Source: a virus
UHGV virus genome: UHGV-0778869
Reading direction: 5' to 3' (one strand)
Length of the DNA: 23,187 nucleotides
A program made the position numbers and the translations under genes. Positions 5,878 to 19,792 of this stretch are shown here, in pieces; position 1 is the stretch's first letter; each line of letters opens with the position of its first letter. Under the pieces are notes generated by a model that did no database searches, was not told the origin of the DNA, and saw only the letters and a program-made list of their open reading frames with translations.

Positions 5878-6156
5878 TCAGGCCTCGAAGAATTCGCCGT
5901 TCTTCGGGGCTTTTTCTTTTGTCAGCATTCTGGCTACTTTCTTAGCCAGTTCCGCCAACTCCTCGTCTTCAACACCCCATTCAAGAACAGCAAGAAGCAT
6001 TCCCATTTTGGGGATGAAGCTGTCTTTCCATCGCGAAATTTGCGATTCATTAATCCCTAACGCGTCGGCAACCTTTCGCTGACCACGTACAGCAATTCGA
6101 TTCAGGATGTTGCTTGTAATTGCATTCGCTTTCTTGCGAGTACTTGTAAGTTGCAT
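5878..6156 (-). CDS. cII: CII-like transcriptional activator (P22 C1-like, 92 aa)
   Basis: SQISRWK and MLLAVLEWGV motifs shared with lambda CII; position between cro and O. Confidence 0.85.
   Translation of the reverse strand: MQLTSTRKKANAITSNILNRIAVRGQRKVADALGINESQISRWKDSFIPKMGMLLAVLEWGVEDEELAELAKKVARMLTKEKAPKNGEFFEA
6119..6132 (+). promoter_or_regulatory. Candidate pRE CII-binding site TTGC-N6-TTGC (TTGCTTGTAATTGC)
   Basis: Tandem TTGC tetrads 6 bp apart on the cI-sense strand inside the first codons of the cII-like gene, the lambda pRE arrangement. Confidence 0.6.
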
Positions 6157-6264: not shown

Positions 6265-6459
6265 CTATTTGTTTTTCTTGTTGCTTGGGAAAGGACGAAC
6301 TTCCTCTCCAATCACACTGCCATCAGGCTTTACCGTAACCATAATGTTACGGCCTGCCAGAATGGCCTTGCTGATAGCGCACTGGATTACACCAAAGTCA
6401 CTGGCTGCTTTAGCCTGTCCATGGATTTTGGCGTAATCGGCAAGTGTCATTCGAATCAT
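6265..6459 (-). CDS. cro: Cro repressor (lambda Cro fold, 64 aa)
   Basis: ATG 6459 with GGAGAG SD; product ...[41 protein letters not shown] parallels lambda Cro. Confidence 0.85.
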
Positions 6460-6488
6460 ATGCACTCTCCGTTATTAACCATGAACAA

Positions 6489-6559
6489 AGAATACTACAG
6501 GTATTCAAAGCAATCAATACTCAGGGTATTTTTAGTTTGAGTACCTTAGCTATTAGAAT
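6489..6559. promoter_or_regulatory. OR region: three 15-bp operators (6491-6505, 6516-6530, 6540-6554) overlapping divergent pR and pRM
   Basis: AATACTACAGGTATT, AATACTCAGGGTATT, AGTACCTTAGCTATT. pR on minus strand: -35 TTGATT (6517-6512), 17-bp spacer, -10 TATTCT (6494-6489). pRM -10 TAGAAT (6554-6559) would start transcription at the cI ATG. Confidence 0.65.
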
Positions 6560-6565
6560 TAAGCT

Positions 6566-7282
6566 ATGGAAAATAAAAAATCACTGACGACAGAACAGCT
6601 CGAAGACGCTAAGCGGCTTAAGGCTTTGTATGAGTCAAAAAAGAAAGAATTGGGAATAACCCAATACTCAATCGCTGATGAACTGGGTATCACCCAAGGA
6701 GCGGTAGGGCATTATCTTAATGGCAGAAACGCGCTAAACGTTGAGGTCGCATCTGGTTTTGCACGTTTGTTGCAAGTCTCAATTGCTGATTTTAGCCAGT
6801 CAATTGCTGCCAAGGTTGCAGAACAGGCAGAAAGCCTTAAGAGCGATGCCAACGTAAGGTATGCAGGGGAATACAGAGCAGGAAAGAGGTATCCGGTGTT
6901 AAGCAGTATCCAGGCTGGCTCGTGGTGTGAAGCATGCGAACCATACACCATTAAAGACATAGATGTTTGGCTTGAGTCTGACGCGCATATTCAAGGTAAT
7001 GCGTTCTGGCTTAAAGTGGAAGGTGATTCAATGACGGCACCGGTTGGGTTAAGCATTCCAGAGGGAACATTCGTTCTTTTCGATACCGGAAGGGAGGCGA
7101 TCAACGGCAGCTTGGTCATAGCAAAACTTTCTGACTCTAACGAAGCAACATTCAAGAAGCTGATAATCGACGGCGGAAATAAATACCTCAAGGGACTTAA
7201 TCCTGCATGGCCTCTCGTGCCAATCAATGGAAACTGCAAGATTATAGGCGTTGCAATTGAGACAAAACTAAGGCTGGTTTGA
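6566..7282 (+). CDS. cI: CI/C2-type prophage repressor (HTH plus S24 LexA-like autopeptidase, 238 aa)
   Basis: N-terminal HTH (ITQYSIADELGITQGAVGHYLNG); Ala-Gly cleavage site (SIQAGSW), catalytic GDSMTAP and FKKL; C-terminal half close to P22 C2 as recalled. Confidence 0.9.
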   Translation: MENKKSLTTEQLEDAKRLKALYESKKKELGITQYSIADELGITQGAVGHYLNGRNALNVEVASGFARLLQVSIADFSQSIAAKVAEQAESLKSDANVRYAGEYRAGKRYPVLSSIQAGSWCEACEPYTIKDIDVWLESDAHIQGNAFWLKVEGDSMTAPVGLSIPEGTFVLFDTGREAINGSLVIAKLSDSNEATFKKLIIDGGNKYLKGLNPAWPLVPINGNCKIIGVAIETKLRLV

Positions 7283-7299
7283 TCACGCAAGGGGCGATT

Positions 7300-7668
7300 A
7301 TGGTTGGAACCGCTATAGCAAGCTTTTTTGGGATGTTGGCAATCTCGACAATTTACGGCTTAGCGCATGCTTTTATTGCGAAATCTCTATCAGAAAAAAT
7401 AAGCCAGGCTTGGGCGCATAGATCAGCTCGTTTCATGATTCTGGTGATCATAGCAATACAAGGGATATCTGCATTTATCCTCTATGGATCAAGCTTATAC
7501 CTATTGTATCAAGGCGCGACATTTACGCCTTACACCAGTGATTACGGAACTCTATACGATGGTAGTGAAGACATCACTGTGGCTTGGATCGTCTTTGGTT
7601 TATCTATGGCCGTGTCTGTTGTAGCAGACATCATTAAGGTAATTATCGTCTTAACCTTCGCTGACTAA
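7300..7668 (+). CDS. Small polytopic membrane protein (about 122 aa) downstream of cI
   Basis: ATG 7300 with AAGGGG SD (alternative ATG 7279 overlaps the cI stop); three to four hydrophobic helices; same strand as cI. Confidence 0.6.
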   Translation: MVGTAIASFFGMLAISTIYGLAHAFIAKSLSEKISQAWAHRSARFMILVIIAIQGISAFILYGSSLYLLYQGATFTPYTSDYGTLYDGSEDITVAWIVFGLSMAVSVVADIIKVIIVLTFAD

Positions 7669-7754
7669 CCTATAATCCCGGCAGCAATAGCTATCGGGAT
7701 CCACTTCACATATCCCGCATAAAAAGCACTGAACAAGCAGACACCGAAAAAATA

Positions 7755-7841
7755 AATATCCTTTGTATTCATTTGCTTATCATTATTTCACCAAAAATAA
7801 ATACCTTGGGTATTTACACAATAAAATACCTACAGTATTCT
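7755..7841 (+). promoter_or_regulatory. OL region: three 15-bp operators (7755-7769, 7800-7814, 7825-7839) overlapping pL
   Basis: AATATCCTTTGTATT, AATACCTTGGGTATT, AATACCTACAGTATT. pL: -35 TTTACA (7813-7818), 17-bp spacer, -10 TATTCT (7836-7841). Confidence 0.6.
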
Positions 7842-7887
7842 TTAGCCATCAGCAGGACGCTGGAAGCCAAACGGAACAGATTGGCAG

Positions 7888-7928
7888 GCTCTTTAACATT
7901 GATGGGATTGTCCCGCCGAAATGCGGGA
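7888..7928 (+). promoter_or_regulatory. nutL: boxA GCTCTTTAACA (7888-7898) plus boxB hairpin TCCCGC-CGAAAT-GCGGGA (7911-7928)
   Basis: Same boxA/boxB as nutR, downstream of pL and upstream of the N-like gene. Confidence 0.7.
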
Positions 7929-8241
7929 ACCAAAGAGTAGTTGGCTTTGGGGTGACGTGAAGTGCAGCTGCACGACGGCAACCGGAAGATAAGCACCCGG
8001 CGCGCCACCGCCAAAGTCAATTCCATAGGCGTTATGCAGCCGCCACCATATTCAAGAAAGCTGCACAAGAGGTAGGAGGATTTATGTGAATACTTACATT
8101 CAATTGAGAGATTAATTAAATAGAACTGATCGAGCAGAGTCCATAAAGGCTCATAAATGCTCTTCCATCCCCGTCTAATTGGCGGGGAAGGAAACAACTT
8201 TGTAATAAAAAAATTCCAAAGTTGTTTCATCGGAGGTCAAC

Positions 8242-8514
8242 ATGACAGTAGTCATTACATATCTGGCTGACGATAACGCCAGAAATCGCCGCAGAGCACG
8301 CAGACAGGCTCAACGTGAACAGGCAATGCAAGAGCAGCGACTGGCGCGAAAAATTGCGCTAAAGCTCTCTGGTTGCGTCAGAGCAGATAAAGCAGCATCA
8401 CTCGGAAGCCTTCGCTGCAAGAAGGCAGATGAATGCAGTGGAAGTATTTGCCTGCCAAACGTAGCCATTTACTCGGCAGGCTACCGGAAATCAAAACAAC
8501 TGACAGCCAGGTAA
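8242..8514 (+). CDS. N-like transcription antiterminator with arginine-rich motif (P22 gp24-like, 90 aa)
   Basis: GGAGG SD; ARM NARNRRRARRQAQREQA near the N-terminus; C-terminal ...YSAGYRKSKQLTAR resembles P22 gp24 as recalled. Confidence 0.8.
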   Translation: MTVVITYLADDNARNRRRARRQAQREQAMQEQRLARKIALKLSGCVRADKAASLGSLRCKKADECSGSICLPNVAIYSAGYRKSKQLTAR

Positions 8515-9448: not shown

Positions 9449-9565
9449 CACTAACAACAGAATAAACACAGCACTGTGTATTCATTCCAACGAGTGAATA
9501 CACGGAGCAATGTCGCTCGTAACTAAACAGGAGCCGACTTGTTCTGATTATTGGAAATCTTCTTT

Positions 9566-9594
9566 GCCCTCCAGTGTGAGGGCAATTTTTTTTG
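9566..9594 (+). terminator. Intrinsic terminator immediately upstream of the next gene's RBS
   Basis: Stem GCCCTC / GAGGGC with loop CAGTGT, then AATTTTTTTTG; GGAGG SD follows at 9597. Confidence 0.7.
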
Positions 9595-9605
9595 ATGGAG
9601 GATAT

Positions 9606-10574
9606 ATGAGTGAAGTAACAGATTTAGTTGTTATTGAAAAAGCAAATGCAATGACTGTATTTCAGTCTGCCGACCAGATTGAAGAAATCCTTCAAAAGGT
9701 TGAACGTGAAGTTATGTCCTTTGTGCCTGATATCACAACGGCAAAGGGCAGAAAGGAGATCGCTTCTCTGGCGTATAAAGTTGCGCAGACGAAAACATAT
9801 CTCGATGGTCTTGGCAAAGACCTTGTTGCTGAACTGAAGGAAATTCCAAAGCTAATTGATGCCAACCGCAAGACAGTGCGTGATCGCCTTGATGAGCTGA
9901 AAGCCAAGGCGCGCCAGCCTCTTACTGATTATGAGGAGGAACAGGCACGGATTAAAGCCGAAGAAGAAGCTAAGGCAGCAGCTGAAGCTCTCGCAAAGCA
10001 AATTGAGTCTGACCATGAAATAGCGATTTTGATGGATCGCGAATTTGACCGCCAAAGAGAAGAGGCAAGACTCAAAGCGGAGCAGGAAAAGCGAGAGCAT
10101 GAAGAACGCTTAAAAAGAGAAGCTGAAGAGAAAGCCAGAGCAGAAGCCGAAGCAAAGGCAAAAGCCGAAATTGAAGCAGCAGCAAGGCGAGAAGCAGAAG
10201 CTAAGGCCGCAGCGGAACGTGCAGAGCGTGAACGTATTGAAGCCGAGCAACGAGCACAGCGCGAAGCAAAAGAGGCAGCAGAACGAGCTGAAAGAGAAAA
10301 GCAGGCGGCAATTGAAGCAGAACGCCGAAAAGCACAGGAGGAGGCTGAACGAATCCGGCGCGAGGCTGAAGCAAAAGAGCAAGCAAGAATAGCAGAAGAA
10401 AAAAGAATCAAGGACGAAGAAGAGCGTAGAGCAAAGGATAAAGCTCACCGGAAAGAAGTAAATAACAAAATACTTGCTGACCTTATCAAGGTTGGCGCAT
10501 CAGAAGATGTTGCTAAAAATATCATAACAGCCATCGTAAAAGGCGAAGTATTCGCAACAAAAATAACCTACTAA
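9606..10574 (+). CDS. Hypothetical protein (322 aa): N-terminal globular domain, long Glu/Ala/Lys/Arg-rich coiled-coil, short C-terminal domain
   Basis: ATG 9606 with GGAGG SD; the low-complexity centre (EAEAKAKAEIEAAARREAEAK...) generates several spurious antisense ORFs; sits upstream of the Sak4-like gene. Confidence 0.7.
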   Translation: MSEVTDLVVIEKANAMTVFQSADQIEEILQKVEREVMSFVPDITTAKGRKEIASLAYKVAQTKTYLDGLGKDLVAELKEIPKLIDANRKTVRDRLDELKAKARQPLTDYEEEQARIKAEEEAKAAAEALAKQIESDHEIAILMDREFDRQREEARLKAEQEKREHEERLKREAEEKARAEAEAKAKAEIEAAARREAEAKAAAERAERERIEAEQRAQREAKEAAERAEREKQAAIEAERRKAQEEAERIRREAEAKEQARIAEEKRIKDEEERRAKDKAHRKEVNNKILADLIKVGASEDVAKNIITAIVKGEVFATKITY

Positions 10575-18848: not shown

Positions 18849-18969
18849 TTCATTGCTCCAGACGAATGATATGATGCAACCATGATGTGATTGCATACCG
18901 AAATGGTACTATTGAGTATTTATCCAGTAGGTTACGATGCCATTCCACCCAACTGGTGAGGCATCAAGG

Positions 18970-19236
18970 ATGTACAGCAAATACGACGAGGCGCAGTTTC
19001 ACTTGAGACTTCCGCATGAACTCCACGCGAAAATTAAGCAGCGTGCGAAGATGAATAACAGGTCGCTGAACTCAGAGATAATTGCAGCGATTGAAGAATC
19101 ATTGGCTAAACAAAGCTCTGCATCTGTTTACATTGACGATGCAGAGCGTATGGCAGAACAACAATCTGAGATGGTTAAGAAAATTGTCTTTGATACGCTT
19201 AAGACCATGTATAGCAATAATAAAAAGGAAACATAG
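18970..19236 (+). CDS. mnt: Mnt-like ribbon-helix-helix repressor (about 88 aa)
   Basis: AQFHLRLPHELHAKIKQRAKMNNRSLNSEIIAAIEESL ... DAERMAEQQSEMVKKIVFDTLK parallels P22 Mnt as recalled; start uncertain (ATG 18970 or 18937). Confidence 0.75.
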   Translation: MYSKYDEAQFHLRLPHELHAKIKQRAKMNNRSLNSEIIAAIEESLAKQSSASVYIDDAERMAEQQSEMVKKIVFDTLKTMYSNNKKET

Positions 19237-19306
19237 AAATCTAGTTTCCGGCTAAAATGGCATTGCCTTCATGATATCCTGTGAAAAACTAAGGAGAGTT
19301 AACCAT

Positions 19307-19792
19307 ATGAAAAAGTCACTGTTAATTATCCCGCTTCTGCTGGTTGGATGCGCAAAAGTAAGTGACTATCAAGCAAGTTGCGAACAACGCTATCAAAAGC
19401 TTAGCGATATGGCTAATTGCCTTGATGCCAGTGTGAAGAACGACTCACGCATGGCATCAGCACCAACACCTAAGCTGTATGTCCTTGCTGCAAAGATGCT
19501 CGGGCAAAGTGTCGATGAAGGCAAGATAAGTGACGCACAGGCAAGACTTGAGCTTCAGAATCTTTATGTTCAATTACAAAGCCAAGAACAAGCCCAACAA
19601 ATAGCACAAAGCCAAGCATTCCAGCAGGCTTTATTGAATTATCAGGCTGTAAACACAATGCAAGCGATCGAGCAAAAAGCGAGACAGCCTGTTATAACTC
19701 AACCCTATCCAACACGAGTTGACACTTACACAAACTGCAATTCAGGATTTGGAAACACGGTAACATGCAACAGTAGCAGTAGCATCAGATAA
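19307..19792 (+). CDS. Lipoprotein (161 aa) with Gln-rich mature domain
   Basis: AAGGAGAG SD; signal peptide MKKSLLIIPLLLVGC with lipobox LVGC; located between mnt and the ejection-protein gene. Confidence 0.7.
   Translation: MKKSLLIIPLLLVGCAKVSDYQASCEQRYQKLSDMANCLDASVKNDSRMASAPTPKLYVLAAKMLGQSVDEGKISDAQARLELQNLYVQLQSQEQAQQIAQSQAFQQALLNYQAVNTMQAIEQKARQPVITQPYPTRVDTYTNCNSGFGNTVTCNSSSSIR

What the first reader, a model, noticed from the sequence alone, without database searches (positions are those of the whole stretch)
7279..7668. Lysogen-expressed polytopic membrane protein directly downstream of cI (rex / exclusion position)
A roughly 122-aa protein with three to four hydrophobic helices overlaps the repressor stop, so it would be co-transcribed with cI from pRM in a lysogen. 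In lambda this slot holds rexA/rexB (abortive-infection exclusion), and in other lambdoid phages it holds unrelated exclusion or defence morons. No RexA-like partner is present and I could not assign a family, so it is a candidate stand-alone prophage-encoded exclusion or defence effector.
Basis: inference. Interest (0 to 1): 0.6.

Follow-up and report, generated by a model that had tools for sequence, protein, structure and literature searches.

The report
HkaS: prophage membrane protein after cI
The ORF is real: it is hkaS, a long-annotated gene of unknown function that encodes a small three-helix inner-membrane protein. Lambdoid prophages of enteric bacteria carry it directly behind their repressor gene, in the slot where other phages keep anti-phage genes, but its function is still untested.

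Summary
The ORF is a real gene under purifying selection. It is 98% identical to hkaS of coliphage HK620, annotated 'unknown' in that record. The conserved start is ATG 7300 (122 aa, stop 7668), 17 nt after the cI stop. The TTG at 7279 that overlaps cI is out of frame in Hafnia-type relatives. The protein has three transmembrane helices, with predicted N-out/C-in topology (AlphaFold2 pLDDT 95). It has no match in Pfam, NCBIfam or PADLOC and no informative fold match. PHROG 6534 (unknown function) is its only family. It is an orphan family of 33 clusters, all 121-122 aa and all from Enterobacterales, found in 146 of 5,426 complete E. coli genomes. Nearly every copy sits 17-20 nt behind a cI gene and is followed by a stable hairpin, then OL/pL and N. 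This indicates a cI-hkaS operon with no RexA-like partner. One sub-clade has moved to the other classic moron slot: Q, then tRNAs, then hkaS, then terminators, then holin. It is not related to RexB or P22 SieA. The most likely role is a lysogen-expressed membrane exclusion or defence protein, but this is inference only. It is a new member of a known kind, of moderate interest.

The parts
6466..6565 (.). OR operators with divergent pR and pRM, between cro and cI. This is the presumed source of the cI-hkaS transcript in a lysogen.
   Evidence: The HK620 record annotates OR1-OR3 and pR here; locus L001 1483-1556 equals window 6482-6555. cro is at 6265-6465 on the - strand and cI at 6566 on the + strand. 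pRM itself is not annotated and is inferred.
6566..7282 (+). cI repressor, 238 aa, LexA-like (HTH_3 + Peptidase_S24), HK620 immunity type.
   Evidence: Pfam hits at 8e-10 and 5e-24. It is 99.6-100% identical to cI of HK620, mEpX2, HK140, HK630 and Stx2c phages.
7289..7294 (+). Shine-Dalgarno AAGGGG of hkaS, 5 nt before the ATG, inside the 17-nt cI-hkaS spacer (7283-7299).
   Evidence: Read from the sequence. An AAGGA/AAGGG motif sits in the same place in all lineages, including the late-slot copies.
7300..7668 (+). hkaS coding sequence: 122 aa, three transmembrane helices, predicted N-terminus periplasmic and C-terminus cytoplasmic.
7675..7700 (+). GC-rich hairpin (AUCCCGG...UCGGGAU) 7 nt after the hkaS stop. 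It is the probable end or 3' stabiliser of the cI-hkaS transcript and has no U-tract in this lineage.
   Evidence: RNAfold -14.1 kcal/mol, z -3.5. A hairpin of different sequence lies in the same place in 12 of 12 lineages (mean z -3.4), with a canonical U-tract in L097 and L113. It is present in 80 of 80 IMG/VR loci.
7755..7841 (+). OL operators (AATAYC-N3-RTATT at 7755-7769, 7800-7814 and 7825-7839) and pL (TTTACA-17-TATTCT, 7813-7841). This starts the separate N operon.
   Evidence: and the HK620 annotation.
8242..8514 (+). N antiterminator (90 aa), first gene of the pL operon. It marks the far edge of the cI-N slot.
   Evidence: Pfam N_peptide 1.6e-15.

Best explanation
The ORF is hkaS, the second gene of a two-gene cI-hkaS operon in an HK620-immunity module carried here by a P22/Sf6-like prophage.

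Shown or strongly supported:
- It is a real gene under purifying selection, 122 aa, starting at ATG 7300.
- It is a compact three-helix integral membrane protein. By the positive-inside rule the N-terminus is periplasmic. The loop at 28-44 (K28, K33, R41, R44) is cytoplasmic. The acidic beta-hairpin loop at 71-91 is periplasmic. The C-terminus is cytoplasmic.
- It has no partner gene and no detectable relative outside a narrow enterobacterial prophage family.
- It behaves as a self-contained moron (ORF plus SD). It stays attached to the 3' end of cI while every flanking module changes, and it has once jumped to the Q-tRNA-lysis slot.

Inferred:
- In a lysogen it is made from the pRM transcript together with repressor, and from pRE during establishment.
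- It inserts in the inner membrane and acts there against incoming phages. The most likely mode is interference with genome entry through the inner membrane (superinfection exclusion in the manner of P22 SieA or T4 Imm). A less likely mode is action as a membrane-damaging abortive effector.
- The invariant cytoplasmic-face residues (W38, H40, A43-R44-F45, D110, K113, the VLTFAD tail) and Q54 in TM2 would form the conserved working or assembly surface. The fast-evolving periplasmic loop would set target specificity.

Sub-claim confidence: gene, operon and membrane protein about 0.9; accessory moron about 0.85; anti-phage function about 0.4; block of DNA entry specifically about 0.25.
For: Identity and reality of the gene:
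- 98% identical to HK620 hkaS and a full-length match to PHROG 6534.
- dN/dS is 0.14 against the Hafnia-type copy and 0.09-0.20 elsewhere. dN is 4-5 times that of the adjacent cI.
- 80 of 80 IMG/VR copies are intact.

Membrane protein:
- Hydropathy.
- AlphaFold2 pLDDT 90 with 4 sequences and 95 with 28 sequences, giving the same three long helices plus a loop hairpin.

Operon:
- A 17-20 nt gap after cI in every cI-linked lineage.
- The only promoter-like site in 6400-8300 is pL, and no terminator-like site lies between cI and hkaS.
- A hairpin follows the stop in 12 of 12 lineages.
- The HK620 record places the terminator of the cI transcript after hkaS.

Moron behaviour:
- Replication, N, recombination and virion modules differ around a constant Cro-cI-HkaS core.
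- L113/L114 have a different cI DNA-binding domain and an unrelated Cro, but the same cI C-terminal domain followed by hkaS.
- L091-L094 carry the gene 21 nt after a tRNA-Met/Phe/Thr cluster, between Q plus variable cargo (KAP NTPase, DUF6575, DUF6037, methyltransferase) and the S21 holin. Two intrinsic terminators lie between hkaS and the holin. This clade is nested inside cI-linked ones.

Slot precedent:
- Lambda has rexAB here.
- BTP1 has the abortive-infection gene bstA here, and the cI-N interval is described as a mosaic hotspot under the strongly transcribed repressor promoter (PMC8585504).

Functional precedent:
- P22 SieA is a prophage-expressed inner-membrane protein with three predicted TM helices that blocks DNA delivery (PMC10883804).

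Conservation pattern:
- The cytoplasmic loop and C-tail are most conserved and the periplasmic loop most variable.
Against: No functional evidence of any kind was found. There is no PADLOC, Pfam or NCBIfam hit for any of 28 members. There is no similarity to RexB or SieA. Fold searches return only generic helical bundles. No paper on hkaS was found.

The gene travels with the immunity module, not with any virion or injection module; it occurs in P22-like, lambda-like, HK97-like and Stx podovirus backgrounds. That is unlike SieA, which sits next to the ejection-protein genes. It argues against a block tailored to the phage's own injection machinery.

The same slot also carries non-defence or unknown cargo, for example a secreted 134-aa protein in 434 and Huey.

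The hairpin after hkaS lacks a U-tract in this lineage, so termination there is not proven. Lysogen expression was not observed.
Confidence: 0.45

Rival explanations
1. Stand-alone abortive-infection effector. HkaS would be a latent membrane pore or depolariser, working like RexB but without RexA. A superinfecting phage would trigger it directly, and it would kill or arrest the cell.
Confidence: 0.15
2. Lysogenic-conversion membrane protein unrelated to phage defence. It would change host envelope physiology, for example immunity to a pore-forming bacteriocin or tail-like toxin, or stress, acid or antimicrobial tolerance.
For: Both slots it occupies also carry conversion genes: the stx position in the late operon and assorted envelope proteins behind cI. 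From general knowledge (not tested here), E1-type colicin immunity proteins are about 113-aa, three-helix inner-membrane proteins, a close match in size and shape. The gene is frequent in animal and human E. coli, including O111:H8 and Stx2c-phage lysogens.
Against: No Pfam hit to any immunity or resistance family. No bacteriocin gene is nearby. The protein evolves 4-5 times faster than cI, with the fastest change in the periplasmic loop. That fits an arms race better than a housekeeping envelope role.
Confidence: 0.2
3. Lysis-related protein: an antiholin-like or holin-modulating protein that controls lysis timing or protects lysogens from lysis by another phage.
For: Predicted N-out/C-in with three helices, which from general knowledge is the topology of class I holins such as lambda S105. 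In L091-L094 the gene lies upstream of an S21 holin and SAR-lysozyme cassette, in the same orientation.
Against: It lacks the charged hydrophilic C-terminal tail of holins; it ends in VLTFAD. No holin Pfam family is hit. The late-slot phages already have a complete holin/endolysin/spanin set, and two intrinsic terminators separate it from them. In more than 95% of copies seen it is behind cI, where a lethal holin could not be tolerated.
Confidence: 0.08
4. Lysogeny-maintenance factor acting with the repressor. It would be a membrane protein that tunes establishment or induction, for example by acting on FtsH/HflKC or other membrane proteases that control CII/CIII, or by protecting the repressor.
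For: Very tight linkage to the 3' end of cI across all lineages, even when the cI DNA-binding domain and Cro are swapped. It would also be made from pRE during establishment. The analogous 434 gene is labelled 'repressor protection protein' by one depositor.
Against: The late-slot clade functions away from cI. Phages with related cI genes (52-71% identical) lack the gene: only the 16 records with near-identical cI carry it, and the Serratia OS31 record (71%) annotates no gene in the slot. So it is not needed for this repressor type. The 434 protein is an unrelated secreted protein, and no paper uses that label.
Confidence: 0.07
5. Not a functional gene: a hydrophobic ORF kept only because it lies in DNA conserved for other reasons.
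For: No annotation beyond 'hypothetical' in any record. A few frameshifted copies exist (P0006, P0007, P0009).
Against: dN/dS is 0.1-0.2 with saturated synonymous sites. Length is fixed at 121-122 aa down to 52% identity. There are 22 invariant residues. 80 of 80 IMG/VR copies are intact. The SD is conserved, and the ORF was relocated independently together with its SD.
Confidence: 0.02

Closest known systems
hkaS of coliphage HK620 (AAK28867, 'unknown'), with copies in HK630, HK140, mEpX2, HF4s and Stx2c phages; PHROG 6534
   Same: Same gene: 96.7-99% amino-acid identity in 15 of the 16 phage records (90% in HF4s), same position 17 nt after an identical cI, and the same downstream hairpin, OL/pL and N.
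   Different: Nothing material. The window copy differs by one or two residues (T93/V94 versus the common S/M). It sits in a P22/Sf6-like prophage whose N leader carries a 206-bp insertion relative to HK620.
Lambda RexB (with RexA), the occupant of the same slot
   Same: Lies downstream of cI and upstream of OL/pL. Presumed to be transcribed with cI in the lysogen. It is a small polytopic inner-membrane protein (RexB properties as summarised in PMC8585504).
   Different: No sequence relationship (hhalign probability 0.2%). Three helices and 122 aa versus four helices (general knowledge) and 144 aa. No RexA-like sensor gene is present.
P22 SieA superinfection-exclusion protein
   Same: Prophage-expressed inner-membrane protein with three predicted TM helices, sufficient on its own for exclusion (PMC10883804). 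It is the best functional analogy for a single small membrane protein.
   Different: No sequence relationship to type A SieA (hhalign probability 0.3%). SieA is 162-164 aa, has its own promoter and lies beside the ejection-protein genes. HkaS is tied to cI and occurs with several virion types. In the window the sieA position holds an unrelated lipoprotein.
BstA of Salmonella prophage BTP1
   Same: A single gene directly downstream of cI in a P22-like prophage. The authors presume it shares the repressor promoter, and report it highly expressed in lysogeny. It is anti-phage (PMC8585504).
   Different: BstA acts at sites of phage DNA replication and carries a self-immunity DNA element. HkaS is a 122-aa membrane protein with no PADLOC hit.
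Class I holins (lambda S105) and E1-type pore-forming-colicin immunity proteins
   Same: Size of about 105-120 aa and three TM helices. The predicted N-out/C-in topology matches that of S105. These resemblances are from general knowledge.
   Different: No Pfam hit to any holin or immunity family. No charged C-terminal tail. Presumably expressed constitutively with the repressor, which a holin could not tolerate.

Membership tests
HkaS family (PHROG 6534) | Full-length sequence match to the family profile | tested here: met
   phrog_6534 E 7.6e-79 over residues 1-122 of 122. 98% identical to HK620 HkaS.
HkaS family (PHROG 6534) | 121-122 aa, three TM helices, invariant W38/H40/A43-R44-F45/Q54/D110/K113 and the VLTFAD C-terminus | tested here: met
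   Alignments of 28 and 34 distinct members. AlphaFold2 pLDDT 95.
HkaS family (PHROG 6534) | Position 17-20 nt downstream of a LexA-like cI, followed by a hairpin and then OL/pL | tested here: met
   Window coordinates. 79 of 80 IMG/VR loci and all cI-linked lineages.
Lambda RexB | Sequence or profile similarity to RexB | tested here: not met
   hhalign family profile versus lambda RexB: probability 0.2%. No Pfam hit above noise.
Lambda RexB | Four transmembrane helices | tested here: not met
   Three helices by hydropathy and AlphaFold2.
Lambda RexB | Adjacent rexA sensor gene | tested here: not met
   Only hkaS lies between cI and OL/pL. The same is true in all related loci.
P22 SieA | Sequence similarity to a SieA type | tested here: not met
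   hhalign versus P22 (type A) SieA: probability 0.3%. Types B and C were not tested because their sequences were not at hand.
P22 SieA | Inner-membrane protein with three predicted TM helices | tested here: met
   Prediction only. SieA description in PMC10883804.
P22 SieA | Own promoter, located beside ejection-protein genes 16/20 | tested here: not met
   hkaS is behind cI. The window's sieA position (19271-19792) holds a lipoprotein.
P22 SieA | Blocks DNA delivery of superinfecting phage | not testable with these tools
   Needs plating, K+ efflux and DNA-entry assays.
Known anti-phage defence systems (PADLOC-DB 2.0) | Match to any defence protein model | tested here: not met
   Zero hits for the window protein. 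One of 28 members gives E 0.044 to a model of unknown function.
Holins (class I) | Match to a holin family, a charged C-terminal tail, and membership of the lysis cassette | tested here: not met
   No Pfam holin hit. The C-terminus is VLTFAD. Late-slot phages have their own S21 holin, separated from hkaS by terminators.
Prophage moron (accessory gene) | Dispensable insert between core genes, present in some relatives and absent in others, and mobile between genomic contexts | tested here: met
   Absent from phages with cI 52-71% identical. Present with two immunity specificities. Present in two slots.
Prophage moron (accessory gene) | Expressed from the repressed prophage | not testable with these tools
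   Inferred from operon anatomy only.

The most novel reading that the evidence does not exclude
HkaS is a new single-gene, membrane-embedded anti-phage system. The reading is a 122-aa three-helix protein made with the repressor that by itself stops hetero-immune or lytic phages at the inner membrane. A conserved cytoplasmic-face motif (W38, H40, ARF, D110, K113, VLTFAD) would do the work, and a rapidly diversifying periplasmic hairpin loop would choose the target. The same module would be used in two expression contexts: behind cI, and behind the late-region tRNAs upstream of the late terminators.
Probability: 0.3. Interest if true: 0.6.

Novelty: new member of a known kind. Interest (0 to 1): 0.4.

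Why it matters
The interval behind the repressor is one of the most strongly transcribed places in a prophage. In lambda (rexAB), BTP1 (bstA) and, from general knowledge, HK022 (nun) it holds systems that decide which other phages can grow in a lysogen.

HkaS fills that place in about 2.7% of complete E. coli genomes, including O111:H8 strains, and in sequenced Stx2c-converting phages. It is also present in Salmonella, Klebsiella, Enterobacter, Citrobacter, Cronobacter and Hafnia prophages. Yet it has no known function and no relatives.

It is small and acts without a partner gene. It exists in natural variants from 52 to 99% identity, with a hypervariable loop. That makes it an easy target for a phage-panel test. 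If positive, it would add a minimal membrane exclusion protein that rides with immunity modules rather than with virion modules.

If it is not anti-phage, it is still a widespread lysogen-expressed envelope protein of pathogenic E. coli that is worth a phenotype.

Tried and rejected
- **Start codon.** The TTG start at 7279 (129 aa, overlapping cI) is rejected. It is out of frame in Hafnia-type loci, and the ATG plus SD are conserved.
- **Family libraries.** Pfam, NCBIfam and PADLOC scans of the window protein and of 28 family members give only sub-threshold noise: Cation_ATPase_C at 17.6 bits versus a 27.3-bit cut-off, and TssN.
- **Remote homology.** 5.8 billion proteins searched by single sequence (9 hits, all at least 77% identical). 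1.84 billion representatives searched with a profile (2 representatives). A diverse-profile search gave 33 clusters, all in the family. A PDB sequence profile gave one hit at E 0.36. No distant relatives were found.
- **Direct comparisons.** RexB, P22 SieA and the 434 cI-downstream protein are all unrelated.
- **35-aa hydrophobic ORF on the minus strand (7665-7772).** This was a candidate small toxin. It is rejected as a chance ORF. Its ATG-AAT-AC start is the OL3-like operator, and the frame is not kept in any other lineage (10-40 aa, no similarity). PGAP does not call it.
- **138-aa minus-strand ORF (7814-8230).** It spans pL, nutL and the N leader. It has only a 20-residue PHROG fragment match and no Pfam hit. 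It is treated as spurious.
- **Rfam.** A scan of the whole window gave no family at gathering score.
- **GTDB representative genomes.** The protein-pattern scan and a DNA-junction scan found nothing.
- **Literature.** Searches for hkaS, HK620 plus hkaS, mEpX2 and 'repressor protection protein' found no functional study.
- **Late-slot promoter.** Attempts to locate the late promoter upstream of the late-slot copies were inconclusive. Only a weak TTGCGT-17-TATCAT candidate lies before the tRNAs.
Full report
**What is at the coordinates**

The + strand carries a mechanical ORF at 7279-7668 (TTG start, 129 aa).

Upstream lies a 238-aa HTH_3 + Peptidase_S24 repressor (6566-7282). cro (6265-6465), cII (5878-6156) and an O-like gene are divergent from it. 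Downstream come a sigma-70-like promoter at 7813-7841, three 15-bp palindromic operators (7755, 7800, 7825) and an N antiterminator at 8242-8514.

This is the lambda order cI, (rex slot), OL/pL, N. The lambda record confirms that rexA and rexB lie in that slot. The window as a whole is a P22/Sf6-like prophage, with a tailspike head-binding domain, ejection-protein genes and an integrase.

**It is a known, named, uncharacterised gene**

Megablast shows the 2.1-kb immunity region is 95.5-99.4% identical to HK620, HK630, HK140, mEpX2, HF4s, two Belgian EHEC phages and Stx2c-converting phages. In the HK620 record the ORF is hkaS, product 'unknown'. That record places the cI-transcript terminator tIMM, OL1-3, pL and nutL after it. 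Other records call it hypothetical.

Only 16 of 50,697 phage records encode it. These are exactly the 16 records whose cI is at least 99% identical to the window's. It matches PHROG 6534 (unknown function) end to end. No paper in the library discusses hkaS.

**Start codon and overlap**

In Hafnia-type homologues the TTG is 22 nt before the ATG and so out of frame, while the ATG and an AAGGA-type SD are kept. In 80 IMG/VR loci the ATG lies 17 nt (64 loci), 18 nt (12) or 19 nt (3) after the cI stop. More distant lineages have 17-20 nt. The gene therefore starts at 7300 and does not overlap cI.

**Reality of the gene**

The family has a fixed length of 121-122 aa down to 52% identity and 22 invariant residues. 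dN/dS is 0.14 against the Hafnia type and 0.09-0.20 in other measurable pairs; elsewhere synonymous sites are saturated. Amino-acid change is 4-5 times faster than in the adjacent cI (dN 0.097 versus 0.022; 0.3-0.45 versus 0.06-0.09). All 80 IMG/VR copies are intact. A few frameshifted variants exist but are rare.

**The protein**

Hydropathy gives three segments: 1-27, 42-68 and 90-122. AlphaFold2 gives helices 2-29, 41-73 and 89-121, a short amphipathic helix at 31-38 and a small beta hairpin at 78-86. Confidence is pLDDT 90.3 with 4 sequences and 95.0 (pTM 0.82) with 28 sequences.

Charge distribution supports a topology:
- Loop 28-44 carries K28, K33, R41 and R44, so it is predicted cytoplasmic.
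- Loop 71-91 carries D81, D87, E90 and D91 and no basic residue, so it is predicted periplasmic.
- This gives N-out/C-in. It is an inference from the positive-inside rule.

Across 34 distinct sequences the cytoplasmic loop and the C-terminal tail are the most conserved (mean entropy 0.91 and 0.47). The periplasmic loop is the most variable (1.35). Invariant residues include W38, H40, A43-R44-F45, Q54 in TM2, and D110 and K113 in TM3.

**No relatives, no informative fold match**

- Pfam, NCBIfam and PADLOC give nothing above noise for the window protein or for 28 members.
- A single-sequence search of 5.8 billion proteins found 9 clusters, all at least 77% identical.
- A profile search of 1.84 billion representatives found 2.
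- A diverse profile found 33 clusters, all family members. The ones named are from E. coli, Hafnia, Salmonella, Cronobacter, Citrobacter, Enterobacter and Klebsiella.
- The PDB sequence profile gave nothing.
- Foldseek against BFVD and PDB gave nothing at E<=0.001.
- hhalign of the family profile against lambda RexB and P22 SieA gave probabilities of 0.2% and 0.3%.

**Genomic behaviour**

The gene is in 146 of 5,426 complete E. coli genomes. It is always chromosomal and always beside a LexA-family gene.

Around it, mosaic partners change freely:
- O/P versus DnaB-type replication genes.
- N_peptide versus N36 antiterminators.
- RecT, Erf or Rad52 recombinases.
- P22-like, lambda-like, HK97-like and Stx-podovirus virion modules.

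The Cro-cI-HkaS core stays constant.

In L113/L114 the cI N-terminal DNA-binding domain is of another type (about 20% identity) and Cro is an unrelated P22_Cro protein. The cI C-terminal domain is about 90% identical and hkaS follows it. The gene is therefore not tied to one immunity specificity. It simply stays attached to the 3' end of cI.

Phages with cI 52-71% identical lack the gene. The Serratia OS31 record, for example, annotates no gene between cI and the next operon.

**A second slot**

Four IMG/VR loci (L091-L094) carry homologues 57-60% identical to the window protein in a different place. The order there is:
1. Q antiterminator, followed immediately by a bidirectional terminator.
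2. Variable minus-strand cargo: a KAP P-loop NTPase with a 152-aa protein, DUF6575/DUF7226 with a 145-aa protein, a methyltransferase, or DUF6037.
3. tRNA-Met, tRNA-Phe and tRNA-Thr.
4. A 21-nt gap.
5. The hkaS-like gene.
6. Two intrinsic terminators.
7. S21 holin, SAR lysozyme and spanin.

By position behind the late-region tRNAs this resembles where Stx phages carry stx (general knowledge). The transferred unit is essentially SD plus ORF: AAGGACTTCnAAATG at the 5' joint and TAACCC at the 3' joint, both shared with cI-linked relatives. This clade is nested among cI-linked sequences at 77-79% identity, so the move is derived. It is not present in complete E. coli genomes.

The gene lies upstream of the terminators, so it may be expressed without Q read-through. 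I could not locate the promoter.

**Operon end**

Every one of 12 lineages has a stable GC-rich hairpin within 60 nt of the hkaS stop. The hairpin sequences are not homologous between lineages. Energies are -12 to -18.5 kcal/mol and the mean z is -3.4 against shuffles. Two lineages (L097, L113) have a canonical U-tract. In the window the hairpin is at 7675-7700. No promoter-like or terminator-like site lies between cI and hkaS.

Together with the 17-nt gap, this is good anatomical evidence for a bicistronic cI-hkaS transcript from pRM (and pRE). It is not direct evidence of expression.

**What it most likely does**

The gene is a moron in a slot where known occupants act on other phages:
- lambda rexAB.
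- BTP1 bstA. Its authors stress the conserved position behind the repressor and the high transcription there.
- HK022 nun (general knowledge).

The nearest functional analogue for a lone small membrane protein is P22 SieA. It is a prophage-expressed inner-membrane protein with three predicted TM helices that is sufficient to block DNA delivery.

Three observations fit a membrane exclusion protein whose periplasmic face meets variable phage components:
- Fast evolution relative to cI.
- A hypervariable periplasmic loop.
- A conserved cytoplasmic face.

Use in both a lysogenic and a late-region slot is also easier to reconcile with an entry block, which is useful in both states, than with abortive infection.

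Against this reading, there is no experimental evidence at all. The gene travels with immunity modules rather than injection modules. The same slot also carries unrelated envelope proteins of unknown role, such as the secreted 134-aa protein of 434 and Huey.

I put the anti-phage reading at about 0.4 and an entry block specifically at about 0.25. The rivals are a lone abortive membrane effector, non-phage lysogenic conversion, a lysis modulator, a lysogeny factor, and a non-functional ORF (effectively excluded).

**Verdict**

The positional interpretation is sound. The functional claim remains a hypothesis. The gene already has a name and a PHROG family, so it is not a discovery of a new locus. 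It is an uncharacterised orphan family in a well-known hotspot, with one new point: it has two slots. I rate it a new member of a known kind and of moderate interest, and it is directly testable with a plasmid and a phage panel.

Noticed in passing
window 8021-8226: There is a 206-bp insertion in the N leader relative to HK620. It begins just before an orphaned SD plus ATG-TGA (about 8076-8090) that corresponds to the N start of other lineages. It contains two hairpins (CCCCG...CGGGG, and an 11-bp perfect repeat AAACAACTTTG...CAAAGTTGTTT) before a second SD and the real N start at 8242. HK140 has a version of the insert about 70% identical, with changes on both arms of the first stem. It may be a regulatory or terminator element in front of N.
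   Followed up: partly
L091 2119-6928; also L092, L093, L094: The late-region moron slot has the order Q, bidirectional terminator, variable minus-strand cargo, tRNA-Met/Phe/Thr, hkaS-like gene, two terminators, S21 holin. The cargo is a KAP P-loop NTPase with a 152-aa protein, DUF6575/DUF7226 with a 145-aa protein, a methyltransferase, or DUF6037 with a 117-aa protein. The cargo pairs look like candidate defence systems.
   Followed up: partly
window 19271-19792 (+): A 173-aa predicted lipoprotein (MKKSLLIIPLLLVGC lipobox) lies convergent with the gene-16 ejection-protein homologue. This is the position where P22 has sieA. It has no similarity to P22 SieA and no Pfam hit. It may be a different surface or exclusion moron. 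An Arc/Mnt-like repressor is next to it at 18937-19236.
   Followed up: partly
window 7665-7772 (-): A 35-aa hydrophobic ORF lies antisense to the hkaS-OL interval and looks like a small toxin. Its start is the OL3-like operator read backwards, and the frame is not conserved in any other lineage. It is a chance ORF.
   Followed up: yes
window 7755-7769: An operator-like palindrome AATATCCTTTGTATT lies 45 nt before OL2. It is conserved in position in most of the lineages checked. The HK620 record instead annotates OL3 at the equivalent of 7777-7793 and tIMM at 7750-7780. The stable hairpin is actually at 7675-7700, so those two annotations in the HK620 record may be misplaced.
   Followed up: partly
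L004-L009, just after the hkaS stop (e.g. L005 1813-1825): In Hafnia-type loci a poly-C tract of 8 to 10 C follows the hkaS stop codon directly, and its length differs between contigs. It could be a slippage-prone tract or an assembly artefact.
   Followed up: no
window 9510-10574 (+): A 354-aa pL-operon protein contains a roughly 150-residue E/K/A/R-rich, coiled-coil-like low-complexity stretch and has no Pfam hit. The complementary strand shows long artefactual ORFs across the same repeat.
   Followed up: no
L116 2109-2513 (phage 434) and L119 2209-2613 (phage Huey): The gene in the same slot of 434-immunity phages overlaps the cI stop (ATGA) and encodes a 134-aa protein with a signal peptide. 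One depositor labels it 'repressor protection protein' and another labels it 'PagP'. Neither label could be traced to any paper.
   Followed up: partly
L113 and L114, 2067-2980: There is a recombination joint inside cI. The N-terminal DNA-binding domain and Cro are of a different (P22_Cro-type) immunity, while the cI C-terminal domain (about 90% identical) and hkaS are retained. This is a clear example of domain-level mosaicism within a repressor gene.
   Followed up: yes
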